From assembly GCF_056746865.1 (NCBI RefSeq), contig NZ_CM163382.1: a stretch of DNA of 64,000 nt; one strand, written 5' to 3'. The notes beneath the pieces were generated by a model. It was not told the origin of the DNA. It saw only the letters and a list, made by a program, of their open reading frames with translations, and made no database searches. This document shows positions 1-28,062 of the stretch, piece after piece. The position numbers and the translations under genes were made by a program. How positions within the stretch are numbered: the stretch's first letter is position 1; each line of letters begins with the position of its first letter.

Positions 1-398
1 GATGAATACGCGTTTACACCGTCCTCTTCAACAGTAATAAATTGCGGACGTAAATATCCTTCTTCAAATGCCAGAAAGCGGATCCCTTTAGACTTCGCCC
101 AACGTTTTGCTTCTTTGTGCAATGGACGGCAGTCACCAAAACAGAGAATGGTATCAAAGTCAAATTGCCGGTGGATATCTCGTAACCAACCAGGAAATTC
201 TTTCGGCGTTTGGTAATAAGCCAGATAGTGTCGATGACGGCAGTAAAAACGATCTCCTCCATTGAATACAACATTCACAGCGTTACGACCTAATGACTCT
301 AACCACTCGGCAACATCATTGAAGAAAGGTCCCATCGGTCCCTGCAATAGCAGATATTTTTTACCAGATAATAAAATGCTCAGAGCATTATTTTTCAT
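1..398 (-). CDS. kpsS: KpsS-like capsule polysaccharide export / beta-Kdo transferase, N-terminal ~132 codons only (ORF runs off the window start)
   Basis: Manual minus-strand translation from the ATG at 396-398 gives MKNNALSILLSGKKYLLLQGPMGPFF... and, at the window edge, ...GYLRPQFITVEEDGVNAYS with no stop before position 1. This matches the KpsS N-terminus as I recall it. The 86-aa track ORF at 14..274 is in a different frame. Confidence 0.75.
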   Translation of the reverse strand, partial: MKNNALSILLSGKKYLLLQGPMGPFFNDVAEWLESLGRNAVNVVFNGGDRFYCRHRHYLAYYQTPKEFPGWLRDIHRQFDFDTILCFGDCRPLHKEAKRWAKSKGIRFLAFEEGYLRPQFITVEEDGVNAYS

Positions 399-1560
399 AA
401 TAATCAAGTAATAGTTGACAATAAAATTTATCAGTTCAGTAAAATTATAAGAATATAATTAATTTCCGTTAACAGCGTATAACTCGTTTCTTTTTTCTGA
501 TAAAAAATCGAATTTGATTGATGTTTGAAGTAAATATTTCAAAGATTATCCAACCGCAATAGGCTCCAGCCGTATTGGGAGCATAAAATATTGGATAAGC
601 ACAGATCGCATCTGCGAATCTTAATCTACGCCCGTGACGTGGGGAAAATGGTATACACCAACATTATATCTGTATTAAATTCTAGATTTTCAAGTGTCTG
701 TCATTTCCTTTAAAAAAGAAAGCGTCGCCATAAACACTCTCTAAACAAAAAACCTATAAGAATAGAATTTATTATAGAACCAAGACGGTTTAGAAACACA
801 TCTATTACCAAACACTGAACATAACTCTAAACAACATTGAATAAAAATTAATGACTTTTAATATATTTCATATAGTGTATCCTCTGGAGAGCAATATATT
901 AATCGCTACAGAACGGTTATTAAAAAATATAGAACCAGTGATTGAATCAAAATGACCGATAAACAGTTCAGCAAAGTATAGCAACAGTGACATTTGTTAT
1001 AACAATGATTTTTACTACACGCAAAATATTAACATCACTAAAGTAATGAAAAAACATATTTATCTAAGCACAAAAATACAATATATAGCACATTATAAAA
1101 TAGAATTAAAACAAACCGTAACAACCATGATGCTATATTAATAGTTAAAATATTTTTAGTAAAAGATAAATTACCCCCATTAAAAATTCAAAACTGATGT
1201 TAGTTAACTCATAAGATCCTGCTAATTGATATAACTACGCCCCATGGGATAATGTTTTAATAACAGAACATTATCAGAAAACTGATCCCTCCAAATTTAA
1301 TTATTTTCTTGCTTATTTTATCAATAAAATAGAGTTCTGAAAAGTTATCTTATCTGAAAATATATTAGTGCCATATAGTAACAAAAAATATCAACCTTGC
1401 ATAATGATTTTAACTGTTCAAATAGTGCTCTACCCACATATCACGGGTGACATTTAATATATTTCCTTTGATACTCTACCAATAATAATTTATTGCTGAT
1501 TGTTTAATCACATAATCCCAAACTGCCCTGCAATAATATATTAACTCACAAAAAAAATCA

Positions 1561-3708
1561 TCAGGGTAAAAGTGAACGAAAAAGTCTCAAAGTTTGAGCA
1601 AAAGAAACTAACTTAATTCGCCAACGCTGCCACCACTTAACACCTGCCGTCGTAGCTTTTTTTTGAGTAGATAATAGATGAATTAATTGTTCAGGGCTGC
1701 ACCAAAGCCCTGACTTCCAATCTATATAACGCGGATATTTTACTAATGTAATATATGCTAATGCACTCAACGTTAATGTACGATGGCGTCTTTCTGATGG
1801 ATGCTTATCTTGTGTTAATCCCCAACCACTATAAAACGGCTGTCCCCATGTCGTAACCTTCACTCCTTGAACTAGTGCCTCAAATCCACTAAGCGAAGTC
1901 ATGGTATGTAACTCATTTATGTGTGGATATAGCGATTCCAGTCTAATATCAGATACTTGGCTATCAACACAGTGTGCTAAACAACGCGCCGAAATAGTAC
2001 CTTTTCGATTGCCAGATACCACATCCGGATGAGGTTTGAACAGAATATGTGCATTCGGTTTAGCTTCACGCACAGCCCACAACAACTGTTCATTGCTGCG
2101 GATAATCGGGCTACCACACAAAATGGATGCATCACCATCAACCTGACCAACCACTAGAATCAACTCACGTCCGTCGTTAGGGGGCTCATATTCTTGTGTA
2201 CTCCCCACATTGTATTTACTGACTCGTGATGATTGTAATTGCGCTAATAATGACTCTGCGCGTGCTTCTTCTTTCGCATCTAAAACGTACGTAGTGAGTA
2301 ACTGCTCAAGCTTACTCGGACGGCGGCTATCAAAATAGATTCCAACGGGGTCAATCGAGAGTGATGAAGGTCGACATAAATTAGACCCCAATCCGTTGGA
2401 GCGGATAAAACCATCTTCAATCCGGATCACTGATTGCAGTTCAGGATAACGGTTTCCCCACACCAACACCTGTTCATCATCTTTTAACTGTGAGGGCACA
2501 GTACGAACAAAACAAAGTTCATCTGCCAAATACGCACAAAATGTGCGTATAAAAGCACGCTTCCACAGAGAAAAACCAACGAGATAAAGACGACGCCAAG
2601 GTTTGGGCTCTACCTGCTGCTGAGCCAAAATCGCTACAACATCTTCTACCTCACAACGTTTTCCCAATATAGGATCTAAATAACGCGGATAACGGATCAA
2701 CGCCGCCGCAACTAAGCGGGGCAATGAAATAGATGAAACGCCTTCGGCTGACATTGCTTCTTCACGGCGTATACAACGTTTACTGTCATGCGTTAACCCC
2801 CACCCAGCATAAAATGGCATACCGAAGCAATATACAGGTTTGCCCAACAGCAACGCTTCAAAGCCAACCTGCGATGAAACTGTGTACACCGCATCCACCA
2901 TACGAATTATTCTATGCGGATGGCAAGGTTCACTCACCACCTCAACATCAGCCAGTCGAGGATCACGCCCCACTAAACGTGCTAACACGCCGCTTTTTTT
3001 GCTAAAGCGTGTATCTGGGTGTGTTCGCAACAATAGACGCGCATTAGGGTGATTACGGCGAGCCTCGACCACCATAGAAACAAAATCAGCTTCGCAAGCA
3101 AGAGCCCCAGAAATTGACAAGTCTCCCGCTACTTGATCCACAAGCAAAATACGCGGTCTTGGATCATCCAGTAAACGTGCTAAGTTTGAATGAGCCGTGA
3201 GGGTGAATAACTCAGGTTGTATATGTGTCGGTAAATCTAAAGAAGGCCCGTCAGTAGCACGGACAGAGCCATTAAATGTATGCTCAGTGCTATTGGTATA
3301 GCAGTTATACTTGGTGATTCCTAAACGCAAAATATCAGAGATCAGATGCTCAGCGCGCGCAAGTAAAGCCGTATCAACAGGTTCAATAATAAGCTGTTCT
3401 AATTGACTCGTCTGATGTGCATCATAATATATCCCCAGAGGGTCAGCAATAAGAGAAACCGCCTTTCCTCCTTTTGCTGGGTGCCCGATATAGCCAATAA
3501 AACCATCTTCAAGTTGCCAATAAGATATTCCTAACTCTTGAGCTTTCTGTTTAATCTGCTTAGTATTAGATTTTTTTCCCCAGCCAACTAAAACGTCATT
3601 TTTAGAAAAAGCCTCGTCTCCTTTCATATAAAGCAATGGGTGACCAAGCATAGGCTCAATATTATTTTTTCTGGCAAGAATCCCTTTCGATCCCGTATAT
3701 AAATACAT
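1561..3708 (-). CDS. kpsC: KpsC-like capsule biosynthesis protein (tandem beta-Kdo transferase domains)
   Basis: 715-aa ORF with an internally duplicated module (LEDGFIGYIG...DPLGIYYDAHQTSQLEQLI and IEDGFIRSNGLG...DPVGIYFDSRRPSKLEQLL), typical of KpsC. It lies next to kpsS. The true start codon is uncertain. Confidence 0.8.
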   Translation of the reverse strand: MYLYTGSKGILARKNNIEPMLGHPLLYMKGDEAFSKNDVLVGWGKKSNTKQIKQKAQELGISYWQLEDGFIGYIGHPAKGGKAVSLIADPLGIYYDAHQTSQLEQLIIEPVDTALLARAEHLISDILRLGITKYNCYTNSTEHTFNGSVRATDGPSLDLPTHIQPELFTLTAHSNLARLLDDPRPRILLVDQVAGDLSISGALACEADFVSMVVEARRNHPNARLLLRTHPDTRFSKKSGVLARLVGRDPRLADVEVVSEPCHPHRIIRMVDAVYTVSSQVGFEALLLGKPVYCFGMPFYAGWGLTHDSKRCIRREEAMSAEGVSSISLPRLVAAALIRYPRYLDPILGKRCEVEDVVAILAQQQVEPKPWRRLYLVGFSLWKRAFIRTFCAYLADELCFVRTVPSQLKDDEQVLVWGNRYPELQSVIRIEDGFIRSNGLGSNLCRPSSLSIDPVGIYFDSRRPSKLEQLLTTYVLDAKEEARAESLLAQLQSSRVSKYNVGSTQEYEPPNDGRELILVVGQVDGDASILCGSPIIRSNEQLLWAVREAKPNAHILFKPHPDVVSGNRKGTISARCLAHCVDSQVSDIRLESLYPHINELHTMTSLSGFEALVQGVKVTTWGQPFYSGWGLTQDKHPSERRHRTLTLSALAYITLVKYPRYIDWKSGLWCSPEQLIHLLSTQKKATTAGVKWWQRWRIKLVSFAQTLRLFRSLLP

Positions 3709-3757: not shown

Positions 3758-4309
3758 TTAGATGAACAGCTCTGCGCTCTCTAATGACTTTGCAATACTA
3801 TCTTTTGCTGAAGTGAGAATGTCCGCCTTTAACTCGGGCCACCTAATACCAATTGTAGGATCATTCCATGCAATGCCTCTATCACTGGCAGGGGCATAAT
3901 AATTAGTTGTTTTATACAAAAATTCGGCCGATTCAGTCAGTGTTACAAAACCATGGGCAAATCCTTCCGGAATCCATAACTGTCGTTTGTTTTCCCCTGA
4001 AAGATGAACGCCAACCCATTGTCCGAAGCTCGGTGAGCTTTTGCGAATATCTACCGCAACATCAAACACTTCACCGGCTACACAACGCACTAACTTGCCC
4101 TGGGCATGGGGAGGTAACTGATAGTGCAAGCCACGCAGTACCCCTTTAGAAGATTTTGAGTGATTATCCTGCACAAAGGTAACTGGATATCCTACAGCCT
4201 CTTCAAACAACTTGTGATTAAAACTCTCAAAGAAAAAACCACGCTCATCTCCAAATACTTTTGGCTCAAAAATAAGCACACCAGGAATTGCTGTCTTGAT
4301 TACATTCAT
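3758..4309 (-). CDS. rmlC: dTDP-4-dehydrorhamnose 3,5-epimerase
   Basis: 183 aa, N-terminus MNVIKTAIPGVLIFEPKVFGDERGFF is characteristic of RmlC/RfbC. Last gene of an rmlB-D-A-C run. Confidence 0.9.
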   Translation of the reverse strand: MNVIKTAIPGVLIFEPKVFGDERGFFFESFNHKLFEEAVGYPVTFVQDNHSKSSKGVLRGLHYQLPPHAQGKLVRCVAGEVFDVAVDIRKSSPSFGQWVGVHLSGENKRQLWIPEGFAHGFVTLTESAEFLYKTTNYYAPASDRGIAWNDPTIGIRWPELKADILTSAKDSIAKSLESAELFI

Positions 4310-4374
4310 CTATATGCCCACATTTAATTAAATATTTTTAGGGGAAGCATATTCCCTCCCCCTTCTCAATTACA

Positions 4375-5253
4375 TCACGCCTTATCAATCATTTTTAATA
4401 AATATTGCCCATAGGCGTTTTTTGCCAACGGAGCAGCAAGCTCACGAACCTGGTCGGCACTAATAAACTTCTGGCGATAAGCAATCTCTTCCGGACAAGC
4501 CACTTTCAATCCCTGACGCGTCTCGATGGTCTGAATAAAGTTACTCGCTTCAATTAGGCTTTCGTGGGTACCGGTATCAAGCCAGGCATAACCACGCCCC
4601 ATCATTGCCACCGATAGATTGCCTTGCTCCAGGTAAATACGGTTCACATCGGTGATTTCCAACTCACCACGCGGCGATGGCTTGAGACCCTTGGCAACGT
4701 CCACAACGCTGTTGTCGTAGAAATAGAGGCCGGTGACTGCGTAGCTACTCTTAGGCTCCAGTGGTTTTTCTTCCAGTGAAATAGCGGTACCTTGATTATC
4801 AAATTCGACCACTCCATAACGTTCCGGGTCGTGCACATGATAGGCAAATACAGTAGCACCGGTCTCTTTGGCCGCGGCTGCCTCCAACTGTTTCTGTAGG
4901 TCATGACCGTAGAAGATGTTATCCCCCAGCACCAGTGCACACGGGGCTGAACCAATGAATTCTTCACCCAGAATAAAAGCTTGTGCCAACCCGTCTGGGC
5001 TTGGCTGAACCTCATATTGTAAATTCAGTCCCCAGTGGCTGCCATCACCCAGCAATCGCTGAAAGCGAGGAGTATCTTGTGGAGTGCTAATGATCAAAAT
5101 ATCGCGAATTCCAGCCAGCATCAGGGTGCTCAGCGGGTAGTAGATCATCGGCTTGTCATAGATGGGCAACAACTGCTTGCTCACCGCCATAGTAACCGGA
5201 TAGAGACGTGTACCAGATCCACCGGCCAGAATAATACCTTTACGTTTAGTCAT
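4375..5253 (-). CDS. rmlA: glucose-1-phosphate thymidylyltransferase
   Basis: 292 aa, [21 protein letters not shown]...[16 protein letters not shown] nucleotidyltransferase signature. Confidence 0.92.
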
Positions 5254-5333
5254 GATGCTTGTTTCTTATTTTTAAATTACATAAGAATAAAGTGGCTTGA
5301 GCCGCGCCTTTCTGTTTTATCCTCACCTGTGGT

Positions 5334-6221
5334 TTACTTCCCCATGATCTCAGTCAACATCCGCTCAACACCGACTGACCAGTCCGGCAAAACCAGATCA
5401 AATGTACGCTGGAATTTTTTAGTATCAAGTCGGGAATTATGAGGGCGTTTCGCCGGGGTCGGAAAGGCGCCTGTCGGCACTGCATTAAGCTGTGTGACTG
5501 CCAGTTCAACTCCTGCGTCTCTGGCTTTGTCAAACACCAACCGGGCGTAGTCAAACCAAGTGGTAGTACCGGAGGCAGCCAAATGGTACAGCCCGGCAAC
5601 GTCGGGTTTGCTCTGTGCAACTCGGATTGCATGGGCGGTACAATCGGCCAGCAACTCAGCTCCAGTTGGAGCGCCAAACTGATCATTAATGACCGATATC
5701 TCGCGACGCTCTTTGCCAAGACGCAGCATAGTTTTGGCGAAGTTGGCACCGCGCGCAGCATAAACCCAACTGGTACGAAAGATAAGGTGACGTGAGCAGA
5801 GTGCCGCACCGTGTTCCCCTGCCAGCTTGGTTTCGCCATAGACGTTGAGCGGGGAAATCACATCGGTTTCCACCCAAGGACGTTCACCACTTCCATCGAA
5901 AACATAGTCGGTGGAATAATGTACTAGCCACGCACCTAATGCTTCAGCTTCTTTGGCAATAACCGCCACACTAGTTGCATTGAGTAACTCGGCAAATTCC
6001 CGCTCACTCTCCGCTTTGTCGACTGCAGTATGGGCCGCTGCGTTAACAATCACATCCGGCTTGACGAGACGTACCGTTTCAGCCACCCCTGCAGAATTGC
6101 TAAAATCACCGCAATAGTCGGTGGAGTCAAAATCAACGGCAGTGATGTGCCCCAGAGGCGCCAATGCACGCTGCAGCTCCCATCCTACCTGACCATTTTT
6201 GCCAAACAACAGAATATGCAT
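5334..6221 (-). CDS. rmlD: dTDP-4-dehydrorhamnose reductase
   Basis: 295 aa, [24 protein letters not shown] RmlD-type N-terminus. Start overlaps the rmlB stop by 1 nt. Confidence 0.9.
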   Translation of the reverse strand: MHILLFGKNGQVGWELQRALAPLGHITAVDFDSTDYCGDFSNSAGVAETVRLVKPDVIVNAAAHTAVDKAESEREFAELLNATSVAVIAKEAEALGAWLVHYSTDYVFDGSGERPWVETDVISPLNVYGETKLAGEHGAALCSRHLIFRTSWVYAARGANFAKTMLRLGKERREISVINDQFGAPTGAELLADCTAHAIRVAQSKPDVAGLYHLAASGTTTWFDYARLVFDKARDAGVELAVTQLNAVPTGAFPTPAKRPHNSRLDTKKFQRTFDLVLPDWSVGVERMLTEIMGK

Positions 6222-7306
6222 CAGGTACGCTCCCTATAGTTTTGTTCAATCCAGGATTGGTAGGCACCACTCTTGACGTTGTTAATCCATTGTTGATTAT
6301 CCAGATACCACTGCACGGTCTTGCGAATACCAGACTCAAAAGTCTCCTCTGGCTGCCAATCCAACGCAGCGCTCATCTTGCAAGCATCAATCGCATATCG
6401 GCGATCGTGTCCGGGGCGATCCGCCACATAAGTAATTTGATCGCGATAAGAGCCAGCTTTCGGTACCATCTCGTCAAGCAGATCACAAATAGTATGTACT
6501 ACATCCAGGTTCTGCTTCTCGTTGTGACCGCCTATGTTATAAGTCTCCCCGACCAAGCCAGTGGTCACTACCTTGTAGAGTGCTCGTGCATGATCTTCCA
6601 CATACAACCAGTCACGAATTTGGTCACCTTTACCATAAACCGGCAGCGGCTTGCCATCCAGCGCATTGAGGATCACTAGCGGGATCAGCTTCTCGGGAAA
6701 GTGGTAAGGGCCATAGTTGTTGGAGCAGTTAGTGACAATGGTTGGCAGGCCGTACGTACGGTACCAAGCACGCACCAGATGATCGCTGGAAGCCTTGGAG
6801 GCAGAATAGGGACTGCTAGGAGCGTAGGAGGTAGTTTCGGTAAAGAGCGGCAATGCCTCACCGGAGGCTACTTCATCCGGATGGGGCAGATCGCCATATA
6901 CTTCATCGGTAGAAATATGGTGGAAGCGAAAGGCCGCCTTGCTCAACTCGCCCAGACTGCTCCAATAGGCGCGAGCCGCTTCCAGCAATGTATAGGTGCC
7001 TACGATATTGGTTTCGATAAAGTCGGCTGGCCCTGTGATAGAACGATCAACATGGCTTTCAGCAGCCAGATGCATCACGGCATCTGGCTGGTGCAGAGCA
7101 AACACCCGATCCAACTCAGCACGATTACAGATATCAACTTGTTCAAACGAATAACGCTCACTTGACGATACACTGGCCAAAGATTCCAAATTGCCAGCAT
7201 AGGTGAGTTTATCCAGATTGATAACGGAGTCTCCAGTATCACTAATGATATGACGCACCACGGCAGAGCCGATAAAACCAGCACCGCCAGTAACGAGAAT
7301 CTTCAT
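6221..7306 (-). CDS. rmlB: dTDP-glucose 4,6-dehydratase
   Basis: 361 aa, [21 protein letters not shown]ossmann motif plus extended-SDR body. First gene of the rml run. Confidence 0.92.
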
Positions 7307-8030: not shown

Positions 8031-9062
8031 TTACTCGACACCTACAATTTTACAAGCATATTTTTTAGCATTGAACGCCAACTCGCTACGTTTATGATCT
8101 GCACTAACAAGTAATGAAAGAGCTTTTATCCATATATGTGGGTCATTCTCCAGCAAGATTCCATTTACATTTTGTTCAATGAAGTCACTATATGGTACAC
8201 AATTACTATATAAACCTACAGCCCCCATTCTGACAAAATCATAAAATTTTACGGGGCCGCGAGCCGAATTAAAGTCAGAGTCAAGTAATGGTGCTAACCC
8301 GATATCCAGATGATGAGTCTTGGTATACGCAAGATAATTTTGCCAACTCATCGGATGCAGTACTGAAACTCTTGGTAGGTCACGATAATATTTATAAATA
8401 TCATGCTCGCCAAAAATTTCAAAGCTGGCACGGGGACATTCTCCCAATACCCCCTCTACGATTTGTCTCAACCAATATTTTTCTTCCCGATGAGAACTTG
8501 AGCCATGATAAGCGATTTTTACTGATCGATGTGTTTCAATGAGTGCCAGTGACGGTTTAGCAGAAACAATCTCCGGGTTAAGATGTGCATATTTATTAGC
8601 CAAATAGGCAGTTGAAACCCAAATGTTATCACAATATTGCGTAATCCATCGATGCTGAGCCGCCGACCTCCTTATTATCTTGGTACGATACTCTTTTGGT
8701 AACGTAGATAGTGCAGTCGGGTCAAACAGGTCGTCATCCATAAAATAAACAATTCGAGAAAACCTGTCGTTATATCTTTCTATGTGCTGTTGCCATTTTG
8801 GGGAGATGAATCTAATGACGACAAGGGCAGATCCTCTAGGAATAAATATATCAGTGGATGCTAATGTGTCGATAAAATGACATTCTGCATCAGGAAACCG
8901 ACTTATAATAGCCGATTCAAAATAGGCTAATGTAGGTGATTTTCCCTCATGTAATATAAACAATCGTTCAAAGTTAATCTCAGAGCTTTGCTGACTTCTA
9001 TAACTCTGTTTATTTAATTTACGATAAGGCTTAAATAGTTTCCTGCGAATTAATTCATCCAT
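8031..9062 (-). CDS. hypothetical capsule region-2 protein, possible glycosyltransferase
   Basis: 343-aa ORF inside the serotype region, overlapping the upstream gene by 13 nt. No motif I can name with confidence. Confidence 0.4.
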   Translation of the reverse strand: MDELIRRKLFKPYRKLNKQSYRSQQSSEINFERLFILHEGKSPTLAYFESAIISRFPDAECHFIDTLASTDIFIPRGSALVVIRFISPKWQQHIERYNDRFSRIVYFMDDDLFDPTALSTLPKEYRTKIIRRSAAQHRWITQYCDNIWVSTAYLANKYAHLNPEIVSAKPSLALIETHRSVKIAYHGSSSHREEKYWLRQIVEGVLGECPRASFEIFGEHDIYKYYRDLPRVSVLHPMSWQNYLAYTKTHHLDIGLAPLLDSDFNSARGPVKFYDFVRMGAVGLYSNCVPYSDFIEQNVNGILLENDPHIWIKALSLLVSADHKRSELAFNAKKYACKIVGVE

Positions 9063-11071: not shown

Positions 11072-11174
11072 AATATAACTTACAGTCCAAAGTAACAGAT
11101 GGGGGATACAGATCCTTATTAGCAGGCCTGTAGATAAGAGCAGAAATAAACACCAAAGCGCTTGCTCAATATAT

Positions 11175-12143: not shown

Positions 12144-12586
12144 CAGGCAGGAGAAAAAAATAACCCGTCCAACCAGGTGATCACCCCATCTGATTCCAGC
12201 CCAATAATTATTTTGGTAGAAAATGGAATACTGATATCAAATCCGCACCGAAGTTTTTGATGTTTTTCAGGTGGTTGTTTTAGTATAGCTGAAATAACAT
12301 CAGGCCGCTTTGTATTGAAAGGAAAACTGTATGTCATATGATCAATTTTAACAGCAACATGGGAATCTGCTTCCCCTTCAGCCACTAACCACCCCCGAAG
12401 TACAATCCGGCCATTGACGATCTTTAGTGGTTGTTGTTCTGATGGCGAATCAATATTCCAATATAATTGACCGCCAGACTTGACGAGTGGCGATTTTGTG
12501 AGGGTATAAATAACAGCCATACGATTCCTTCTATTTGAAATATTGCTCAAATAACTCAGACTATCTCCAGATTGCCTTTCAAGCAA
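12143..12586 (-). CDS. hypothetical protein; stand-alone ~90-aa module shared with two neighbouring proteins
   Basis: 147-aa ORF. Shares IVLRGW...RPDV...CGF motifs with the C-terminus of the 409-aa protein and the N-terminus of the 426-aa protein. Confidence 0.4.
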   Translation of the reverse strand: MLERQSGDSLSYLSNISNRRNRMAVIYTLTKSPLVKSGGQLYWNIDSPSEQQPLKIVNGRIVLRGWLVAEGEADSHVAVKIDHMTYSFPFNTKRPDVISAILKQPPEKHQKLRCGFDISIPFSTKIIIGLESDGVITWLDGLFFSPA

Positions 12587-15209: not shown

Positions 15210-15215
15210 TAAATT

Positions 15216-21746: not shown

Positions 21747-23006
21747 TCAATCCTGGTGCTCACGCAAAGTTGCCAGCCCCATAATAATAAGACCATAGAA
21801 CAAGCAAAGTAATACACCCACAGTCGCAAGATTATAGAATCGCCGTGGATATTCGGCATCTTCCGCTAAAGTTGGTTGGGTAATAACCAATAGGTGCTTA
21901 AGTTTACGATATGCCTCAACCCGCGTCTGCTCTAAGCTGATAAGGCCAGTTTTGTAGAGATCCGCTGCCAAGGTTGCCTGCGTTTGCACATCCATGTAAC
22001 CGGCGGTGATTTCATTCATGGCATCGTTATCTTGACCAGTCAGCTTAGCACGCTCCTGTTCAAGCTGCTTGGTTAGGGCGTCAACTCGGCTCTGTAATGA
22101 GACTACGGCCGGTGCGGTTTCCTTCATATAGCTGCGCAGTTGTTTTAGCTCCGCCTGTTGACGCACCAGCTCTCCTTCAATCTGGCTGACCACTCCTAAG
22201 CGTGCGCTGCTGGTAGATTCAGGGCTGAGAAGTTGGTGGCTATTCTGAAATGCTAATACTTTAGCTTTTTCATCCTGTAAGCGTTGATATGCTCTATTTA
22301 CTTCTTTTTCAACAAAGGCCAATTGTTCGAGCGCAACCTGATGACCTAATTTGTTAATAAAACGCTCCGATTCTTTGAGCATTAACTCAACAACTCGCTG
22401 ACCGTATTGGGGATCAAATGTCTGCAACTCAACGGTAAGTACTCCTGATAATTCATCAAGATGTAACGTCAAATGTTTGCGGTAATAATCAAGAAAATCC
22501 TCCCTACTGACTCCCTTATGCAACCGCGAGAAATAATCTGCACTATCACTCTGGAAATGTGCTTTAAGTGCAAGTTCTTTGTCCAACTTGGCCAGCATAT
22601 CCCATGACTTCATATAATCCTGAACGAGTAATATATCCTGATGATTACTACCACCGATCCCTAACATTGATAACGCATCAGGCAACATTTTAACTTGATC
22701 GGCTTGTTTAATCATTAATTCAGCCCGGCTCACATAACGATCGGAAGCAATGAAGCCAAAATAGAGCACTGCGATAGAAAAGCAGATAACTACCCAAAGA
22801 AAACTGCCTAGCTGTAAACTTTTCTTCCACGAGCGGTGTACAATTTGATATCCTCTCGAATCAATCAAAAATAGTTTTGGATTATTGCTCAGTTTTCTTA
22901 ACTTTCGCGCAAGGCGAGATATTGAGGATGAAGAATTCGGAGATGTCATAATCAGTTGCTGCTCAAAGTGACTGGTAAATTTTGATGGCATCATCAATAT
23001 TATCAA
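21747..23006 (-). CDS. kpsE: KpsE-like capsule export inner-membrane protein (Wzz/PCP-3 type)
   Basis: 419-aa track ORF with one N-terminal transmembrane segment, a long periplasmic coiled region and a C-terminal TM (GVLLCLFYGLIIMGLATL). Track start overlaps kpsT by 44 nt; a start at the internal Met (22949) is more likely. Confidence 0.7.
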   Translation of the reverse strand: MIILMMPSKFTSHFEQQLIMTSPNSSSSISRLARKLRKLSNNPKLFLIDSRGYQIVHRSWKKSLQLGSFLWVVICFSIAVLYFGFIASDRYVSRAELMIKQADQVKMLPDALSMLGIGGSNHQDILLVQDYMKSWDMLAKLDKELALKAHFQSDSADYFSRLHKGVSREDFLDYYRKHLTLHLDELSGVLTVELQTFDPQYGQRVVELMLKESERFINKLGHQVALEQLAFVEKEVNRAYQRLQDEKAKVLAFQNSHQLLSPESTSSARLGVVSQIEGELVRQQAELKQLRSYMKETAPAVVSLQSRVDALTKQLEQERAKLTGQDNDAMNEITAGYMDVQTQATLAADLYKTGLISLEQTRVEAYRKLKHLLVITQPTLAEDAEYPRRFYNLATVGVLLCLFYGLIIMGLATLREHQD

Positions 23007-23613
23007 AAACTTCTAATTTACCATCACGTAACAAGATGCCCATATCGCATTGTTGTCGTAGATTTTTCATATCATGTGAAACCATAATCAAACTAGCTGT
23101 TTCTCGCTTTTTGTTAAATACATCAATACATTTTTGTTTAAAACGTGCATCACCTACTGAGGTAATTTCATCGGTAAGATATATATCAAAATCAAAAGCC
23201 ATACTAACAGCAAAAGAAAATTTTGATTTCATGCCGCTAGAGTATGTTTTAATAGGCAACTCATAATGTTGTCCAATTTCAGAAAACTCTTTAACCCACT
23301 CTTCTACGGTGCTTGTATCGCGTACACCATGAATGCGGCAAACAAATCGCGTGTTTTCACGACCAGTCATACTACCTTGAAATCCCCCACCTAGTGCTAG
23401 AGGCCAAGATACTCGGCAGAGACGAGTTACTTTCCCCCTGTTAGGCGTATCCATCCCTCCTAACAAACGTAACAAAGTAGATTTTCCTGCTCCATTGATA
23501 CCTAGAATACCTATATTACGGTCCCTTGGTAGCTCAATATTTACATTCCTCAGGACATAATTTCGTCCAAATTTAGTCGGATAATATTTTGATACATTAT
23601 CAAGAATAATCAT
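22963..23613 (-). CDS. kpsT: capsule ABC transporter ATP-binding protein
   Basis: 216 aa, Walker A GINGAGKSTLL, ABC signature region. Adjacent to the ABC-2 permease. Confidence 0.85.
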   Translation of the reverse strand: MIILDNVSKYYPTKFGRNYVLRNVNIELPRDRNIGILGINGAGKSTLLRLLGGMDTPNRGKVTRLCRVSWPLALGGGFQGSMTGRENTRFVCRIHGVRDTSTVEEWVKEFSEIGQHYELPIKTYSSGMKSKFSFAVSMAFDFDIYLTDEITSVGDARFKQKCIDVFNKKRETASLIMVSHDMKNLRQQCDMGILLRDGKLEVFDNIDDAIKIYQSL

Positions 23614-23624: not shown

Positions 23625-24425
23625 CTAACTAGCAATCAATTGGCGATGCCGTAATCGGTAACAACTCATAGCAAAAGTGAGCAATAATAAGGTGACAACC
23701 GACAGATACGCCCAACTTACATCAGGACTACGATAACCAGATATCCATGCCCTTCGGATTAGTTCTACAGCATGCACAAGTGGATTCCATAAAAACCAAT
23801 GCTGATATTGAGGGGGAATAGTAGCAAGAGGAAACATAACACAAGAGATAAACATCAAAGGCATCATTAACAAGCTAAGAAATTTATCTGCCTCTTTCGC
23901 TAAGTTACAAATAACACAAAATACAATACCAAGAGAAAAAGAAAACAGCATCAGAAGAGAATAACCAAGGATCACTTGCAATGGATCCGCAGGTATTGCA
24001 TCAAAGCCAAACCACAATAATCCTAGTACTAGGATGATACCGACAATCATGCCCACCATTGTTTCTAGCATAAAACGTGCTATAAAAGTTGCAAAAGGAG
24101 TCACTTGTCTATAACAAAAAAGTCCCATATTAGCATTGACAGCAGATTTCAACTGAGTCACAACTTTATTGAAAAACATGAAAGGTAAATAACCAGCAGT
24201 AATAAAAACCTGGGCTGGGACACCACCAAAGCCACTTTGGCTTCTCATCCCAAATACTACACTGAACAGGCTAATCATTAATAATGGGTCAAGTAATGCC
24301 CAAGCATAACCTAGTCGGTAATTACCAAATCTTGTTTTTAGCTCACGAATTAATAAGCCAAATACTACATCACGTAATACTTGCAAAGAAGTGCGTGGAG
24401 TTTGACTAATAATGGGTTTGTCCAT
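23625..24425 (-). CDS. kpsM: capsule ABC transporter permease (ABC-2 family)
   Basis: 266 aa, six predicted TM helices, ABC-2 type. Immediately upstream of kpsT. Confidence 0.8.
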   Translation of the reverse strand: MDKPIISQTPRTSLQVLRDVVFGLLIRELKTRFGNYRLGYAWALLDPLLMISLFSVVFGMRSQSGFGGVPAQVFITAGYLPFMFFNKVVTQLKSAVNANMGLFCYRQVTPFATFIARFMLETMVGMIVGIILVLGLLWFGFDAIPADPLQVILGYSLLMLFSFSLGIVFCVICNLAKEADKFLSLLMMPLMFISCVMFPLATIPPQYQHWFLWNPLVHAVELIRRAWISGYRSPDVSWAYLSVVTLLLLTFAMSCYRLRHRQLIAS

Positions 24426-24491: not shown

Positions 24492-26237
24492 TCATTTAAT
24501 AGCAACGTTAGCAGCTACAGCGATTTGATAAATAATTTGTGTGATATCTTTAAATGATTGCATGGTTTTGCTATCAACCTGAGGTAGAACCAATATCTGA
24601 TCCCCCGGTTGTACTTTACCTTGCCCTTTAAATTCTACAAGACCATTTGCATGTACAATAGCAATTCGCTTGTCGTTAGCTCGCTCAGTAAAACCTCCGG
24701 CCCATGCAACATAATCATCCAAATTAGCATCGGCATTATATACTACTGCTTGTGGCATCAACACTTCACCACCCACTTGAATAAGATCAGTCTTATTTGG
24801 AATAACTATTTGATCGCCTTGTTCTAATTGGATATTGGCAATAACACCTTTATCTGCAACTACTACTTTACCAAGCGGTTGAACTTTACGAGCCTTTTCA
24901 ACAAACTGCATCACTAACTCTGCTTCTTTAGCACGTATATTCGCCTCACCATCAGATCGCGCGGGTGTGGTAAATACACTACGTTCCAAGCGGTTTAGAG
25001 ATTCATCCAGCATCTCTTTTTGTCTTGCAGCCACACTCTTTCGTATCAGATAAATTGATTGATAATCCGCAAGCTCTGGGTCAATAGGGATATAGTTCAA
25101 TAAATCATGCAATTTAGTTTGCTTACGAACCGTGAAATATGACGGTCCCATATAACTGCCTGATACTTGTATATCATATACTTGTGCATGCATGTCATCA
25201 TTAAAAAGTACTTTGTCACCGTCTTTAAGTTGAAGACGTGTAAAATCTTTATACGGCAAGTAGACGGAAAACGGGCCGCTTTCCCTGTCGCCAATCACAC
25301 CGACATGACTGACTTTTGCGAGAGGAAGTGCATAATTCACCAATTCAGAGCCTAATGCATTGCGCTGGGTAAGCTCAAATCGGAATGGGTTTCGAACCTT
25401 TCCCGCAACATTGATCATTGGACCTTGTTGCTCAACTAAAATCACATCTTGATCTTTTAATGCCAGCTTCGGGAGTTTCCCATACCGTATGAAATCATAA
25501 AGATCAATTTGCTGTATTACTCTATTTTGTCGTAACACCTTAATTTTTCGATAACTTCCACGGTCAGAATCTATTCCACCGGCACGTTTTAAAAAATACA
25601 ATATACTATCAGAAGATTGTCCTGCATACTGCCCAGGACGAATTACAGGCCCCGTAACGAATACACTTACAGGGGTTGCAGTCAAAAGATTTACGTAAGT
25701 ATTTACATTATTGGTAAATACATCACCGATCTTACTTGCCACCAACTGATTAACTTGGCTTGCAGGAACATTTTTTACATTTATTGGACCTACATCAGGT
25801 ATGAAAATATTTCCTTGATTATCTACCGTAACCACATTAGAGAAATTGACCGCTCCCCAAATCCAGATATTTAACTTATCCCCAGGAGCAATCAAATAAT
25901 TATCGCTTAAGCCGTCACTCCTTTCTGTTTCATAGCCTCCGGCAAATAAATTAGCACCATACGGAGGAGGTAAGCCTGCTTCAGATTGCGGCAGTAATTT
26001 TCGTACATCTGACTCTCCTGGAAGCAACATCCCATTACGATTCTGTTGTGTGAAGCTTCCTGTTGTGGAGGTTGTATTAGGCTGTCCAGTGATGTCTGCT
26101 AGCATTTTCCGAGACTCTCCTGTCGAGGCAGCAAGATCATAATCTAAATGTGAACCATTAGATTGATTTTGCTCTATTGCGGCGAATGCTGATGCAGAAA
26201 TAAGAAAGAGAAGAGTGCTAAGTTGCGAAATTTTCAT
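24492..26237 (-). CDS. kpsD: KpsD-like periplasmic/outer-membrane capsule export protein
   Basis: 581 aa with signal peptide (MKISQLSTLLFLISASAFA). Central region resembles KpsD (GDKLNIWIWGA...GNIFIPDVGPINV...VFVTGPVIRPGQY...RGSY). Confidence 0.75.
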   Translation of the reverse strand: MKISQLSTLLFLISASAFAAIEQNQSNGSHLDYDLAASTGESRKMLADITGQPNTTSTTGSFTQQNRNGMLLPGESDVRKLLPQSEAGLPPPYGANLFAGGYETERSDGLSDNYLIAPGDKLNIWIWGAVNFSNVVTVDNQGNIFIPDVGPINVKNVPASQVNQLVASKIGDVFTNNVNTYVNLLTATPVSVFVTGPVIRPGQYAGQSSDSILYFLKRAGGIDSDRGSYRKIKVLRQNRVIQQIDLYDFIRYGKLPKLALKDQDVILVEQQGPMINVAGKVRNPFRFELTQRNALGSELVNYALPLAKVSHVGVIGDRESGPFSVYLPYKDFTRLQLKDGDKVLFNDDMHAQVYDIQVSGSYMGPSYFTVRKQTKLHDLLNYIPIDPELADYQSIYLIRKSVAARQKEMLDESLNRLERSVFTTPARSDGEANIRAKEAELVMQFVEKARKVQPLGKVVVADKGVIANIQLEQGDQIVIPNKTDLIQVGGEVLMPQAVVYNADANLDDYVAWAGGFTERANDKRIAIVHANGLVEFKGQGKVQPGDQILVLPQVDSKTMQSFKDITQIIYQIAVAANVAIK

Positions 26238-26263: not shown

Positions 26264-26635
26264 TTATTCTTCAATAAGCAAAGTGCTAACTGATGTTTGT
26301 TCCAACTGAGGTACTTGATACCACTTGTTATTCTCTTTACATACAACACTTCGCTTTGAATAATTTTTATTCATCGCATAACTTAACTTTATGCATTGAG
26401 AACCTAAAGCCGATATATACCTTTCCTCAATAGTATAAATTACGCCATTTTTGTTGAATGTCGTGCCTTGATCTTGGTTATTTAATGGTGCCTGCAAATC
26501 TTCAGGAATAAGAGAATAAGAAGAATTAATCGCTGTTACCAATGGACGAGAGGCTTCAACTTGTTTTGGATCATGTGCGCAGGCCGTTATAAAAAAGATT
26601 AGTGAAAATAATAAAATACGATGTGCAAGGTGCAT
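26264..26635 (-). CDS. putative small lipoprotein
   Basis: 123 aa, signal peptide plus lipobox (FFITAC). Sits between the JUMPstart element and kpsD. No assignable family. Confidence 0.4.
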   Translation of the reverse strand: MHLAHRILLFSLIFFITACAHDPKQVEASRPLVTAINSSYSLIPEDLQAPLNNQDQGTTFNKNGVIYTIEERYISALGSQCIKLSYAMNKNYSKRSVVCKENNKWYQVPQLEQTSVSTLLIEE

Positions 26636-27564: not shown

Positions 27565-27604
27565 GAATGCTACCGCCCCTGGCTTTACAGCTACCAATAC
27601 ACTG
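27565..27604 (-). promoter_or_regulatory. JUMPstart element containing an ops (GGCGGTAG) site, RfaH-dependent antitermination signal for the kps transcript
   Basis: Minus-strand sequence cagtgtattggtagctgtaaagccaggggcggtagcattc closely matches the 39-bp JUMPstart consensus (CAGTG..TGGTAGCTGT.AAGCCAGGGGCGGTAGC). Correct orientation, ~1.3 kb upstream of kpsD. Confidence 0.75.
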
Positions 27605-28062
27605 GAGGTATACTTATCTGCAACTGGATGAACTAGATATACTTGAGCAAACATTTCATAAGCTCGACGAACAGTTTTCGTAGAAATTATTTTCCTTATT
27701 TAAAATTCACTTATTGATTATCTCTAGGAATTTTACTAATTTCCAAGTCACATAAAATACAGATCACACAAGAATTATCCTATATGCTTTAACCTATCAA
27801 TTATTACTCAATGATTCATTACAACTATTAATAATCATAATGCGTCAAAACACTTAAGCAACTTTACAGTCTGAGAAAGGTGTCGATTCACAAGGACTGC
27901 ATAGTGAAAAACGAATTCCTACAGTATTATCGAACATTCCGTGGTGGTCTGGAGGGAGATAACCCTTGCTACATCGGAACTCAGCCCGGTGAGCGGGTTT
28001 GACAGTTCCGCACTCACCTTTGGGCTAAGGTTATCAGGTGGGGTTTAAGGGGATGGCAATAC

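What the first reader, a model, noticed from the sequence alone, without database searches (positions are those of the whole stretch)
1..28060. Capsule island with group-3-like kps organisation inserted beside the T2SS
The transport genes are arranged kpsD-kpsM-kpsT-kpsE, then a ~14-kb low-GC serotype region, then kpsC-kpsS, all on one strand. There is no kpsF or kpsU, and a JUMPstart lies upstream of kpsD. This differs from the group 2 layout (kpsFEDUCS / region 2 / kpsMT) and matches what is described for group 3 capsule clusters. The island directly abuts gspM, the usual pheV-proximal capsule position in E. coli.
Basis: partly seen in the sequence, partly recalled or inferred. Interest (0 to 1): 0.5.

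Follow-up and report, generated by a model that had tools for sequence, protein, structure and literature searches.

The report
Known group 3A capsule gene cluster

Summary
On the minus strand, after gspM/yghD, the window carries a JUMPstart, then kpsD-kpsM-kpsT-kpsE, an 18-kb serotype region, kpsC, and the first 132 codons of kpsS. The JUMPstart scores 54 bits in Rfam. There is no kpsF or kpsU in the window, or as far as pheV in a 99.7%-identical genome.

KpsD, M, T and C are 100% identical, and KpsE 99%, to a K96 (K54-type) group 3A reference. They are 68-90% identical to plasmid-type 3B and 34-46% to groups 2A and 2B. KpsS is 93% identical to group 2A, a hybrid feature of 3A already published.

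The same locus occurs at 99.7% identity and full coverage in five complete genomes. One of them, CP038791, was typed TBA_6 by Hong et al. 2023. Region 1 is at least 99% identical in 100 of 5426 complete E. coli genomes.

Corrections:
- The serotype region is 18 kb: 14.4 kb plus rmlBDAC.
- kpsS is cut by the window edge and lies 1.16 kb beyond kpsC.
- The JUMPstart belongs to a leftover group-2-type kpsM promoter with a kpsM pseudogene.
- pheV is about 55 kb away in that relative.

Verdict: already known, low interest. One untested side lead is a methyltransferase with a long coiled coil that could cap chains and set chain length.

The parts
1..398 (-). kpsS, first 132 codons. The gene continues beyond the window start; it is 406 aa in relatives.
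   Evidence: Pfam Capsule_synth, E 9e-16. 100% identical to the KpsS N-terminus of strain A_5 and K96, and 94% to group 2A KpsS.
399..642 (-). Degenerate remnant of the 3' end of a group-2A-type kpsC, directly upstream of kpsS.
   Evidence: Window 1-601 aligns to the K24 kpsS start plus kpsC end at 81.6% nucleotide identity. tblastn of G2A KpsC aa 601-669 gives 35% identity, E 3.5e-4.
643..1560 (.). AT-rich non-coding spacer between kpsC and kpsS. The whole 399-1560 gap has 28% G+C.
   Evidence: No ORF of 60 aa or more. The sequence occurs only in the 101 genomes that carry a 3A locus, at 95-100% identity. No remnant of a group-3-type kpsS was detected.
1561..3708 (-). kpsC (715 aa), the dual beta-Kdo transferase that builds the poly-Kdo linker.
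   Evidence: Pfam Capsule_synth in two stretches, E 4e-75. 100% identical to K96 KpsC, 68% to 3B, 37% to 2A. The A7, A7 and A8 tracts are in frame.
3758..7306 (-). rmlB-rmlD-rmlA-rmlC (rfbBDAC) for dTDP-L-rhamnose synthesis. Transcription order is 7306 to 3758.
   Evidence: RefSeq annotation of the 99.7%-identical locus. Part of the 1-11072 block that is 99.6% identical to K96.
8031..12143 (-). Conserved three-glycosyltransferase block: a 322-aa GT2/GT92 (11175-12143), a 673-aa GT2 'wsaE' (9050-11071) and a 343-aa protein 'wckE' (8031-9062).
   Evidence: Pfam GT2 families. The wsaE and wckE parts (to 11072) are 99.6% identical to K96. The block is described by Hong et al. 2023.
12143..12586 (-). 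Small hypothetical protein (147-aa ORF; 125 aa as annotated in relatives).
   Evidence: No Pfam or NCBIfam match. 27% identical over 95 aa to the N-terminus of the 426-aa AlgX-like protein.
12714..13910 (-). ugd (UDP-glucose 6-dehydrogenase), implying a glucuronic-acid-containing polymer.
   Evidence: Pfam UDPG_MGDP_dh N-terminal, central and C-terminal domains.
13929..16445 (-). Type-specific pair of genes: an AlgX-like SGNH protein (426 aa, 13929-15209; putative O-acetyltransferase) and a GT2/GT92 glycosyltransferase (409 aa, 15216-16445).
   Evidence: Window 13889-16457 has no counterpart in the K96, TBA_5 or TBA_2 loci. G+C is 0.325. Pfam matches; the AlgX match is weak. 27% identical to the K96 AlgX-related protein.
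16457..18874 (-). Dual-module GT2 glycosyltransferase (805 aa; 'wckN'), the likely polymerase.
   Evidence: Two Glycos_transf_2 stretches, E 4e-48. 99.5% nucleotide identity to TBA_5. Carries the N-terminal FDxxWY motif.
18877..21606 (-). Class I SAM-dependent O-methyltransferase domain, about 540 aa of coiled coil, and a C-terminal double FDxxWY motif (909 aa; 'wckM').
   Evidence: Methyltransf_24, E 5e-25. AlphaFold model of aa 1-265 with pLDDT 89.9; best PDB match is MeT1, 6g80. Residues 224-798 contain no proline. Heptad signal is 0.425 against 0.276 +/- 0.021 in shuffles.
21747..22949 (-). kpsE (400 aa from the annotated start; the ORF extends to 23006), the inner-membrane/periplasmic adaptor.
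   Evidence: TIGR01010 BexC/CtrB/KpsE, 497 bits against a cutoff of 437.5. 99.25% identical to K96 and 34% to 2A.
22963..23613 (-). kpsT (216 aa), the ABC transporter ATPase. It has no extra carbohydrate-binding domain.
   Evidence: Pfam ABC_tran at aa 21-152. 100% identical to K96 and 45% to 2A.
23625..24425 (-). kpsM (266 aa), the ABC-2 permease.
   Evidence: Pfam ABC2_membrane. NCBIfam KpsM model E 1e-46, 159.6 bits, below its 300-bit cutoff. 100% identical to K96 and 40% to 2A.
24492..26237 (-). kpsD (581 aa), the outer-membrane/periplasmic export protein.
   Evidence: Pfam Poly_export and two SLBB domains. 100% identical to K96, 85% to 3B, 36% to 2A.
26264..26635 (-). Small lipoprotein-like ORF (123 aa) just upstream of kpsD.
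   Evidence: The lipobox ...FITAC is visible in the sequence. 47% identical to the ORF at the same position in a 3B plasmid locus. The K96 study deleted this region and capsule was still made (PMC13410964).
27357..27540 (-). kpsM pseudogene: the 5' fragment of a group-2-type kpsM.
   Evidence: Window 27357-27632 is 83.4% identical to the K24 kpsM 5' end plus 96 nt upstream. An in-frame stop and a frameshift are visible in the sequence. Annotated as a frameshifted, incomplete ABC permease in relatives.
27566..27604 (-). JUMPstart element containing ops (GGCGGTAG at 27570-27577), the RfaH loading site.
   Evidence: Rfam RF01707, 54.4 bits, E 5e-10. The exact ops core was found.
27717..27746 (-). 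Promoter-like site, TTGGAA-18-GATAAT.
   Evidence: Consensus scan; the number of sites in the region is not above chance. The offsets from ops are 169 and 145 nt. The experimentally supported K96 promoter lies at 168 and 144 nt from ops (PMC13410964).
28063..28599 (-). gspM/yghD, the last gene of the type II secretion operon and the chromosomal flank of the locus.
   Evidence: Pfam T2SSM, E 6e-46. The 467 nt from inside the 3' end of gspM (38 nt) through the downstream flank (window 27634-28100) are 88.9% identical to the same flank in a group 2A genome.

Best explanation
Window 1-28062 is a complete-looking chromosomal group 3, subgroup 3A, kps capsule locus of E. coli. It is of the type Hong et al. 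(2023) provisionally called TBA_6.

How it most likely works:
- Transcription starts at a promoter directly downstream of gspM, about 1.6 kb upstream of kpsD.
- It passes the JUMPstart/ops site, where RfaH loads.
- It then reads through one long minus-strand operon.
- KpsS and KpsC build a poly-Kdo linker on lyso-phosphatidylglycerol.
- The region-2 enzymes extend a polymer containing rhamnose and glucuronic acid, probably O-acetylated and O-methylated. These enzymes are RmlBDAC, Ugd, five to six glycosyltransferases, an AlgX-like protein and a methyltransferase.
- KpsMT (ABC transporter), KpsE and KpsD export the polymer.

Basis of each step:
- Shown here: gene content, order, identity to typed references, the JUMPstart, and the absence of kpsF/kpsU.
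- Taken from experiments on the near-identical K96 backbone (PMC13410964): the promoter, and the dependence on RfaH and OxyR.
- Established knowledge of Kps systems: the biochemical roles of the Kps proteins.
- Inferred: the sugar composition of this particular polymer.

The locus also carries scars of descent from a group-2-type site. These are a kpsM pseudogene with its promoter and JUMPstart at one end, and a group-2A-type kpsS with a kpsC remnant at the other.
For: - Gene order and domains.
- JUMPstart: Rfam, 54.4 bits.
- KpsD/M/T/C are 100% and KpsE 99.25% identical to the K96 locus of NZ_CP029747. They are 68-90% identical to 3B and 34-46% to 2A and 2B.
- Region 1 DNA is at least 99% identical in 100 of 5426 complete genomes, all chromosomal. 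These include genomes typed K10, K96, TBA_1, TBA_2, TBA_4 and TBA_5.
- Window 7000-28100, from the end of rmlB to gspM, is 99.7% identical at 100% coverage in five genomes, including NZ_CP038791, typed TBA_6. In strain A_5 the match holds across window 1-27278, kpsS and kpsC included.
- No KpsF or KpsU.
- G+C is 41.4%, within the 40-43% reported for 3A.
- The same flank (yghD, kpsM pseudogene, small ORF, kpsD) and the same 1.16-kb kpsC-kpsS gap are present in the K96, TBA_5 and TBA_2 loci.
- The promoter-like site sits at the same offset from ops as the tested K96 promoter.
- All ORFs are full length relative to annotated relatives, and no IS element lies in the locus.
Against: Nothing contradicts the assignment. 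Limits:
- kpsS is only one-third inside the window, so its integrity in this genome is unseen.
- Expression and polymer structure are not testable from sequence.
- The prototype TBA_6 record (LR134240) was not in the searchable collection, so the match to TBA_6 rests on the second genome that Hong et al. typed as TBA_6.
- I could not map the locus to a kTYPr K number.
Confidence: 0.96

Rival explanations
1. It is a group 2 (2A or 2B) capsule locus whose kpsF and kpsU lie just outside the window.
For: KpsS is 93% identical to group 2A KpsS. A group-2-type kpsM 5' fragment, its promoter region and JUMPstart sit next to gspM, exactly where group 2 loci start.
Against: - KpsD/M/T/E/C are only 34-46% identical to 2A and 2B.
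- The gene order is kpsDMTE ... kpsCS on one strand. Group 2 has kpsMT and kpsFEDUCS on opposite strands.
- No KpsF or KpsU was found in the window or in 140 kb of a near-identical genome.
- The kpsM next to gspM is a pseudogene.
Confidence: 0.01
2. It is a plasmid-type subgroup 3B locus captured into the chromosome, as described for TBA_3.
For: It has the same overall gene order as 3B, including the small ORF upstream of kpsD, the three-glycosyltransferase block and rmlBDAC.
Against: - The Kps proteins are 58-90% identical to the 3B reference but 99-100% identical to 3A.
- G+C is 41.4%, typical of 3A; 3B loci have 44-52%.
- kpsS is of 2A type and lies behind a 1.16-kb gap, as in 3A. In the 3B locus examined, kpsC and kpsS are 88 nt apart.
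Confidence: 0.01
3. The locus is present but silent or defective in this strain, so no capsule is made.
For: - Group 3A loci are often inactivated by IS elements and by slippage in an A7 tract of kpsC (PMC13410964).
- kpsC here has A7, A7 and A8 tracts.
- Most of kpsS is outside the window.
- The prototype TBA_6 record is reported to have wsaE disrupted by an IS element.
Against: - Every gene in the window is full length and in frame relative to annotated relatives.
- KpsC is 100% identical to that of a K96-typed genome carrying the same KpsC protein (WP_000281770.1).
- wsaE is intact at 673 aa.
- The IS5 copy present in the 5' leader of several relatives is absent here.
Confidence: 0.12
4. 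The region-2 genes make an O-antigen-like, length-controlled glycan, because they include a methyltransferase with a coiled coil of the kind seen in ABC-transporter O-antigen pathways.
For: A methyltransferase with a long coiled coil, followed by a dual GT2 and rml genes, resembles the Klebsiella O7 and E. coli O9 assembly systems.
Against: - The genes are embedded between kpsDMTE and kpsCS, which define lipid-linked poly-Kdo capsules.
- There is no wzm/wzt pair and no carbohydrate-binding module on KpsT, which is 216 aa.
- The same backbone makes the K96 and K10 capsules.
Confidence: 0.03

Closest known systems
E. coli group 3A K96/K54 kps locus (e.g. NZ_CP029747; strain M12 studied in PMC13410964)
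   Same: - Same flank: yghD, kpsM pseudogene, JUMPstart.
- Same small ORF upstream of kpsD.
- KpsD/M/T/C/S are 100% and KpsE 99.25% identical.
- Same wsaE-wckE, rmlBDAC, kpsC, 1.16-kb gap and kpsS. Window 1-11072 is 99.6% identical and 21746-28600 is 98.8% identical.
   Different: The central part of region 2 (about 11.1-21.7 kb) differs. K96 has a 337-aa coiled-coil protein, a 737-aa GT2, a 294-aa AlgX-related protein, ugd and a 300-aa GT2. The window has a 909-aa methyltransferase with coiled coil, an 805-aa dual GT2, a 409-aa glycosyltransferase, a 426-aa AlgX-like protein, ugd, a 147-aa ORF and a 322-aa glycosyltransferase.
Group 3A type 'TBA_6' of Hong et al. 2023 (PMC10433991), as in CP038791.1
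   Same: Window 7000-28100 matches NZ_CP038791.1 over 100% of its length at 99.7% identity. That genome is listed as TBA_6.
   Different: The paper describes the prototype record (LR134240.1) as having the 3' end of wsaE displaced by an IS element and lacking the three-glycosyltransferase block. Here the block is intact. The prototype could not be fetched.
Group 3A types TBA_5 (= kTYPr K149 reference region, NZ_AP027506) and TBA_2
   Same: The regions from the MTase gene to kpsD, and from ugd to kpsS, are shared at 95-99.5% identity. The methyltransferase is the same protein accession as in TBA_5.
   Different: The window's 13889-16457 segment (AlgX-like protein plus 409-aa glycosyltransferase) is replaced in those types. 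TBA_5 has a different GT2. TBA_2 has a GT2 plus an epimerase.
Group 2A kps loci (K1, K5, K24 and others)
   Same: - Same chromosomal site next to yghD, within the pheV island.
- Same kind of machinery: KpsMTED export, KpsCS linker synthesis, JUMPstart/RfaH control.
- KpsS is 93% identical.
   Different: - Group 2A has two convergent transcription units, kpsFEDUCS and kpsMT.
- kpsF and kpsU are present in group 2A.
- KpsD/M/T/E/C are only 34-46% identical.
- Group 2A is far commoner: 1709 against 102 of 5426 genomes.
WbdD (E. coli O9a/O8) and Klebsiella O7 ORF6 chain terminators with coiled-coil rulers. Comparison for the 909-aa protein only.
   Same: An N-terminal methyltransferase domain followed by a long coiled coil, encoded next to a multi-module GT2 polymerase in an ABC-transporter-dependent pathway that uses dTDP-rhamnose.
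   Different: - No kinase domain is recognisable.
- The methyltransferase is of the Methyltransf_24, cation-dependent O-MTase type. Its closest solved structure is MeT1. WbdD is not among the 50 best matches listed, and CgnL, the closest structural match reported for the O7 ORF6 domain, is not among them either.
- The transporter ATPase has no carbohydrate-binding module.
- No biochemical data exist.

Membership tests
E. coli group 3 capsule locus (subgroup 3A) | Region 1 = kpsD-kpsM-kpsT-kpsE and region 3 = kpsC-kpsS, flanking a serotype region, all transcribed in one direction | tested here: met
   ORF order and domains on the minus strand. The definition is given in PMC10433991.
E. coli group 3 capsule locus (subgroup 3A) | Absence of kpsF and kpsU | tested here: met
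   tblastn with G2A KpsF and KpsU gave no hit at E <= 1e-3 in the window, or in the A_5 genome from sslE to beyond pheV. The positive control worked.
E. coli group 3 capsule locus (subgroup 3A) | KpsD and KpsE fall in the 3A clade (kTYPr assigns groups by KpsDE phylogeny) | tested here: met
   100% and 99.25% identity to the K96 3A locus; 85% and 76% to 3B; 36% and 34% to 2A; 36% and 35% to 2B. No tree was built, but the identity values leave no ambiguity.
E. coli group 3 capsule locus (subgroup 3A) | Chromosomal location near serA, in the pheV-yghD interval | tested here: met
   gspM/yghD abuts the locus in the window. All 103 matches of region 1 are chromosomal. tRNA-Phe and an integrase lie about 55 kb beyond kpsS in strain A_5. 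pheV itself is outside the window.
E. coli group 3 capsule locus (subgroup 3A) | kpsS of group-2A descent (a published peculiarity of 3A) | tested here: met
   KpsS is 93% identical to 2A, 77% to 2B and 58% to 3B. PMC13171606 section 8 states the same.
E. coli group 3 capsule locus (subgroup 3A) | G+C of 40-43%; rmlBDAC preceded by a conserved three-glycosyltransferase block | tested here: met
   G+C is 41.4%. The block and the rml genes are 99.6% identical to K96. The criteria come from PMC10433991.
E. coli group 3 capsule locus (subgroup 3A) | JUMPstart/ops upstream of region 1, with RfaH-dependent expression from a distant promoter | tested here: met
   The sequence element is present (Rfam 54.4 bits), as is a promoter-like site at the same offset as in K96. 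Dependence on RfaH and OxyR in this strain is not testable with these tools.
E. coli group 3 capsule locus (subgroup 3A) | Capsule expressed at all growth temperatures; polymer linked through poly-Kdo to lyso-phosphatidylglycerol | not testable with these tools
   This is a phenotypic and chemical property. It needs the strain.
Group 3A type TBA_6 (Hong et al. 2023) | Region 2 gene content as in the genomes typed TBA_6 | tested here: met
   100% coverage at 99.7% identity to NZ_CP038791.1, which is listed as TBA_6. The prototype LR134240.1 was not available.
E. coli group 2 capsule locus | kpsFEDUCS and kpsMT as convergent units, with Kps proteins of the group 2 clades | tested here: not met
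   Different order and strand arrangement. No kpsF or kpsU. 34-46% identity for KpsD/M/T/E/C.
Coiled-coil chain terminator / molecular ruler (WbdD type). Applies to the 909-aa protein only. | A terminating catalytic domain at the end of the protein distal from the polymerase-recruiting region | tested here: inconclusive
   An O-methyltransferase fold is present at the N-terminus. Whether it modifies the chain terminus is unknown.
Coiled-coil chain terminator / molecular ruler (WbdD type). Applies to the 909-aa protein only. | An extended coiled coil between the catalytic domain and the C-terminal region | tested here: met
   575 residues without proline. Heptad a/d hydrophobic excess is 0.425 against 0.276 +/- 0.021 in 200 shuffles. 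No dedicated coiled-coil predictor or oligomer model was run.
Coiled-coil chain terminator / molecular ruler (WbdD type). Applies to the 909-aa protein only. | A C-terminal region that recruits the polymerase | tested here: inconclusive
   A double FDxxWY motif at the C-terminus matches the N-terminus of the adjacent dual GT2 (53% over 40 aa, E 1e-11). The same pairing is seen in the K96 and 3B loci. No interaction was tested.
Coiled-coil chain terminator / molecular ruler (WbdD type). Applies to the 909-aa protein only. | A transporter ATPase with a carbohydrate-binding module that recognises the terminal cap | tested here: not met
   KpsT is 216 aa and consists of the ABC domain only.

The most novel reading that the evidence does not exclude
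The first two serotype genes may form a chain-terminating, length-setting machine inside a Kps-type capsule pathway. The first is a 909-aa O-methyltransferase with about 540 residues of coiled coil and a C-terminal double FDxxWY motif. The second is an 805-aa dual GT2 carrying the same motif at its N-terminus.

Under this reading, the methyltransferase caps the growing rhamnose-containing chain, and the coiled coil acts as a ruler, as WbdD does for the O9a O-antigen. Export would proceed without the cap-recognising transporter module used in O-antigen systems.

The published notes on these genes call one of them a glycosyltransferase (Hong et al. 2023). They treat variation in coiled-coil length as unimportant for K antigen production (kTYPr methods). 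The papers I read do not discuss the ruler idea for group 3 capsules.
Probability: 0.3. Interest if true: 0.45.

Novelty: already known. Interest (0 to 1): 0.1.

Why it matters
It matters little beyond correct annotation. The window can be labelled as a group 3A capsule locus of the TBA_6 type, intact as far as the window shows.

This is useful for in-silico K typing, for predicting serum resistance and phage or depolymerase susceptibility, and for epidemiology. Group 3A is found in about 2% of complete E. coli genomes, and this type in 5 of 5426, mostly from ruminants.

The layout, the absence of kpsF/kpsU, the JUMPstart with its kpsM pseudogene, the group-2-like kpsS and the position next to the type II secretion genes are all described in the literature. 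Only the possible chain-length function of the coiled-coil methyltransferase would add something, and it needs experiments.

Tried and rejected
- Clarke et al. 1999, the original K10 group III paper, is not held in the library. Statements about it are therefore not used as evidence.
- The prototype TBA_6 record NZ_LR134240.1 is not in the E. coli collection.
- I searched the kTYPr supplements for the accession numbers of the matching genomes and found nothing. The table of reference loci lists 3A types K145 and K158 only as draft contigs that I could not fetch. I therefore could not give the locus a kTYPr K number. K149's reference is the TBA_5-like genome NZ_AP027506.
- I looked for a remnant of an ancestral group-3-type kpsS in the kpsC-kpsS gap by tblastn and found none. 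Only a group-2A kpsC 3' remnant is there.
- A sequence search of the 909-aa protein against PDB gave no hit. A profile search gave only MeT1 at E 0.0035.
- Consensus promoter and terminator scans of the leader and of the gap gave counts no higher than shuffled sequence. Only the site that coincides with the published K96 promoter is reported.
- Group 2, 3B and O-antigen readings were considered and rejected on identity values and gene content.

Full report
**What is in the sequence**

All genes of interest lie on the minus strand. Reading in the direction of transcription from gspM/yghD (28063-28599; Pfam T2SSM), the window holds the following.

1. An 1825-nt leader (26238-28062).
2. kpsD (24492-26237), kpsM (23625-24425), kpsT (22963-23613) and kpsE (21747-22949).
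3. Nine serotype genes (8031-21606).
4. rmlB-rmlD-rmlA-rmlC (7306-3758).
5. kpsC (1561-3708).
6. A 1162-nt non-coding gap.
7. The first 132 codons of kpsS (398-1), which then runs off the window.

Domain assignments support each name:
- KpsD has Poly_export and SLBB domains.
- KpsM has ABC2_membrane and matches the NCBIfam KpsM model below its cutoff.
- KpsT has ABC_tran.
- KpsE matches TIGR01010 (BexC/CtrB/KpsE) at 497 bits, above its cutoff.
- KpsC has two Capsule_synth stretches, and the KpsS fragment has one.

The locus has 41.4% G+C against 52.7% for the rest of the window. Rfam finds a JUMPstart at 27566-27604 (54.4 bits, gathering score 35, E 5e-10). Its ops core starts 1340 nt upstream of the kpsD start codon.

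**Is it group 3?**

I compared the Kps proteins with one locus from each of the four lineages defined in the kTYPr paper (PMC13171606). The 3A locus is a genome typed K96 by Hong et al.; the other three are kTYPr reference loci.

| Protein | 3A (K96, NZ_CP029747) | 3B (K160 plasmid) | 2A (K24) | 2B (K141) |
|---|---|---|---|---|
| KpsD | 100% | 85% | 36% | 36% |
| KpsM | 100% | 82% | 40% | 39% |
| KpsT | 100% | 90% | 45% | 46% |
| KpsE | 99.25% | 76% | 34% | 35% |
| KpsC | 100% | 68% | 37% | 38% |

- The kpsDMTE DNA is at least 99% identical in 100 of 5426 complete E. coli genomes, always on the chromosome. These include genomes that Hong et al. 2023 typed as K10 (99.1%), K96 (99.6%), TBA_1, TBA_2, TBA_4 and TBA_5.
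- The K24 reference is representative of group 2A. Its kpsFEDUC region is at least 95% identical in all but 8 of the 1709 genomes that match it, including PMV-1 and EC958.
- tblastn with KpsF and KpsU finds nothing in the 64-kb window. It also finds nothing in 140 kb of strain A_5, which is 99.7% identical to the window over 1-27278, while the control works.

The published definition of group 3 is therefore met: kpsDMTE in region 1, kpsCS in region 3, and no kpsF/kpsU.

**Which type?**

- Window 7000-28100 matches five complete genomes at 99.7% identity over its whole length.
- One of the five, NZ_CP038791, is listed as TBA_6 by Hong et al..
- Region 2 is a mosaic.
  - 1-11072 is 99.6% identical to K96.
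  - 16458-27278 is 99.5% identical to TBA_5.
  - 13889-16457 has no counterpart in K96, TBA_5 or TBA_2. It encodes an AlgX-like protein and a 409-aa glycosyltransferase and has 32.5% G+C.
- The paper describes the TBA_6 prototype as having wsaE broken by an IS element. Here wsaE (673 aa) and the rest of the three-glycosyltransferase block are intact.
- Gene content (rmlBDAC, ugd, five to six glycosyltransferases, an AlgX-like protein, a methyltransferase) implies an acidic, rhamnose-containing polymer that is probably O-acetylated and O-methylated. This is inference; no structure is known.

1. *The JUMPstart is inherited from a group-2-type site.*
   - Window 27357-27632 is 83% identical to the 5' end of K24 kpsM plus its upstream 96 nt.
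   - Window 27634-28100 is 89% identical to the yghD-proximal flank of that group 2A genome.
   - The kpsM fragment carries a stop and a frameshift. Relatives annotate it as a pseudogene.
   - The K96 study (PMC13410964) describes the same kpsM' fragment. It shows that transcription starts about 1.6 kb upstream of kpsD and needs RfaH and OxyR. It also shows that the fragment and the small ORF upstream of kpsD are dispensable.
   - The window has a promoter-like site (TTGGAA-18-GATAAT, 27746-27717) at 169 and 145 nt from ops. The K96 promoter lies at 168 and 144 nt.
2. *KpsS is of group 2A type.*
   - It is 93% identical to 2A, 77% to 2B and 58% to 3B, as already published.
   - Directly upstream of it (about 399-642) is a decayed 3' end of a group-2A kpsC.
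   - Compared with a group 2A locus, this kpsS segment is inverted relative to the kpsM fragment.
   - The remaining 918 nt of the gap occur only in the 101 genomes that carry a 3A locus. They have no recognisable origin.
   - In the 3B locus examined, kpsC and kpsS are only 88 nt apart.
3. *pheV is not close.* In strain A_5, tRNA-Phe and its integrase lie about 55 kb beyond kpsS. Toxin-antitoxin, Ag43, sugar-utilisation and Afa-type adhesin genes lie between. The kps locus is at the yghD end of the island.

**How it most likely works**

- A single long operon is read from the promoter next to gspM, with RfaH recruited at ops to suppress termination. This includes read-through of the AT-rich leader and of the kpsC-kpsS gap.
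- KpsS and KpsC make the poly-Kdo linker on lyso-phosphatidylglycerol.
- The region-2 enzymes build the polymer.
- KpsMT, KpsE and KpsD export it.

The gene set and control elements are shown here. The promoter and regulator dependence are taken from experiments on the near-identical K96 backbone. The enzymology is established knowledge for Kps systems.

The locus looks functional:
- Every ORF is full length.
- The A7/A8 tracts of kpsC are in frame. One A7 tract phase-varies in K96.
- The IS5 copy that interrupts the leader at 27275-27278 in A_5, TBA_5 and TBA_2 genomes is absent.

**Side lead**

The first serotype gene (18877-21606) encodes a 909-aa protein with three parts.
- An N-terminal Methyltransf_24 domain. 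An AlphaFold model of residues 1-265 has pLDDT 89.9. Its best solved match is MeT1 of Mycobacterium hassiacum, with other cation-dependent O-methyltransferases following (E 2e-10, TM 0.52-0.63). From my own knowledge, MeT1 is a polysaccharide sugar O-methyltransferase.
- A proline-free stretch at residues 224-798. It has a strong heptad signal: 0.425 against 0.276 +/- 0.021 in shuffles.
- Two copies of an FDxxWY...HY motif at the C-terminus.

The next gene, a dual GT2 of 805 aa, begins with the same motif (E 1e-11). The same pairing occurs in the K96 and 3B loci but not in the 2A or 2B loci examined.

This is the architecture of coiled-coil chain terminators and rulers such as WbdD and Klebsiella O7 ORF6 (PMC11231755). 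However, there is no kinase domain, and KpsT has no carbohydrate-binding module. The kTYPr paper mentions these 'putative methyltransferase genes' and their variable coiled-coil length only in passing. Hong et al. list the gene among glycosyltransferases. The idea is plausible and untested.

**Verdict**

The finding is real and correctly interpreted, and it is already known. It is a subgroup 3A kps locus of a catalogued type, at the standard site, with published regulatory and hybrid features. Interest is low.

Noticed in passing
window 18877-21606 (-) and 16457-18874 (-): The first serotype gene encodes an O-methyltransferase domain, about 540 residues of coiled coil and a C-terminal double FDxxWY motif. 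The adjacent dual GT2 starts with the same motif. This resembles WbdD-type chain terminators and rulers of O-antigen pathways, here inside a Kps capsule locus whose KpsT lacks a carbohydrate-binding module.
   Followed up: partly
window 18835, 19005, 19119 (-); L005 18683, 18930; L008 8351, 10275: A motif of about 34 aa (FDxxWYxxxYxDV...HY..G) recurs at the C-terminus of the first region-2 protein and at a terminus of the following glycosyltransferase. This holds in the 3A (TBA_6, TBA_5, TBA_2, K96) and 3B (K160) loci. It was not found in the 2A or 2B loci examined. No Pfam family matched it.
   Followed up: partly
window 399-1560: The 1162-nt gap between kpsC and kpsS has 28% G+C. Its kpsS-proximal 240 nt or so are a decayed group-2A kpsC 3' end. 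The remaining 918 nt occur only in the 101 genomes with a 3A locus, have no ORF and no detectable origin. The 2A-type kpsS is inverted relative to the kpsM pseudogene when compared with a group 2A locus.
   Followed up: partly
window 27275-27278; L001 33848-34828, L006 29195-30175, L007 28205-29185: Several relatives (A_5, the TBA_5 reference and the TBA_2 reference) carry an IS5 copy in the long 5' leader, between ops and kpsD, at one and the same site and in both orientations. The window is uninterrupted. Such insertions could uncouple the distant promoter from the operon.
   Followed up: no
window 12143-12586, 13929-15209, 15216-16445 (-): The 147-aa hypothetical protein is 27% identical over 95 aa (E 3e-4) to the N-terminal part of the 426-aa AlgX-like protein. 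By eye, a similar stretch appears at the C-terminus of the 409-aa glycosyltransferase. This may be a shared small domain of unknown function.
   Followed up: partly
window 26264-26635 (-): A 123-aa lipoprotein-like ORF (lipobox FITAC) sits just upstream of kpsD. It is conserved at 47% identity at the same position in a plasmid 3B locus, although the K96 study found the region dispensable for capsule production.
   Followed up: partly
window 1561-3708 (-): kpsC contains A7, A7 and A8 tracts, at coding-strand nucleotides 132, 709 and 2045, all in frame. An A7 tract of the identical K96 kpsC undergoes reversible 7A-to-6A phase variation.
   Followed up: partly
window 26961-26987 (-) and 717-742 (-): There is a terminator-like hairpin followed by a T-run in the 5' leader and another in the kpsC-kpsS gap. 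Both lie on the transcribed strand, where RfaH-dependent read-through would be needed. Their number is no higher than in shuffled sequence.
   Followed up: no
window 28600-64000: Judged from the annotation of strain A_5, the rest of the window is ordinary. It holds the gspC-M type II secretion operon with pppA and gspS2, then sslE, glcABGFEDC and yghO. It also holds a cluster with serine palmitoyltransferase, an acyl carrier protein, a fatty acyl-AMP ligase and extra lptF/lptG copies. Window 27275-30000 is only 97.25% identical to A_5, while 1-27278 is 99.7% identical. This suggests the capsule locus moved between backgrounds.
   Followed up: no
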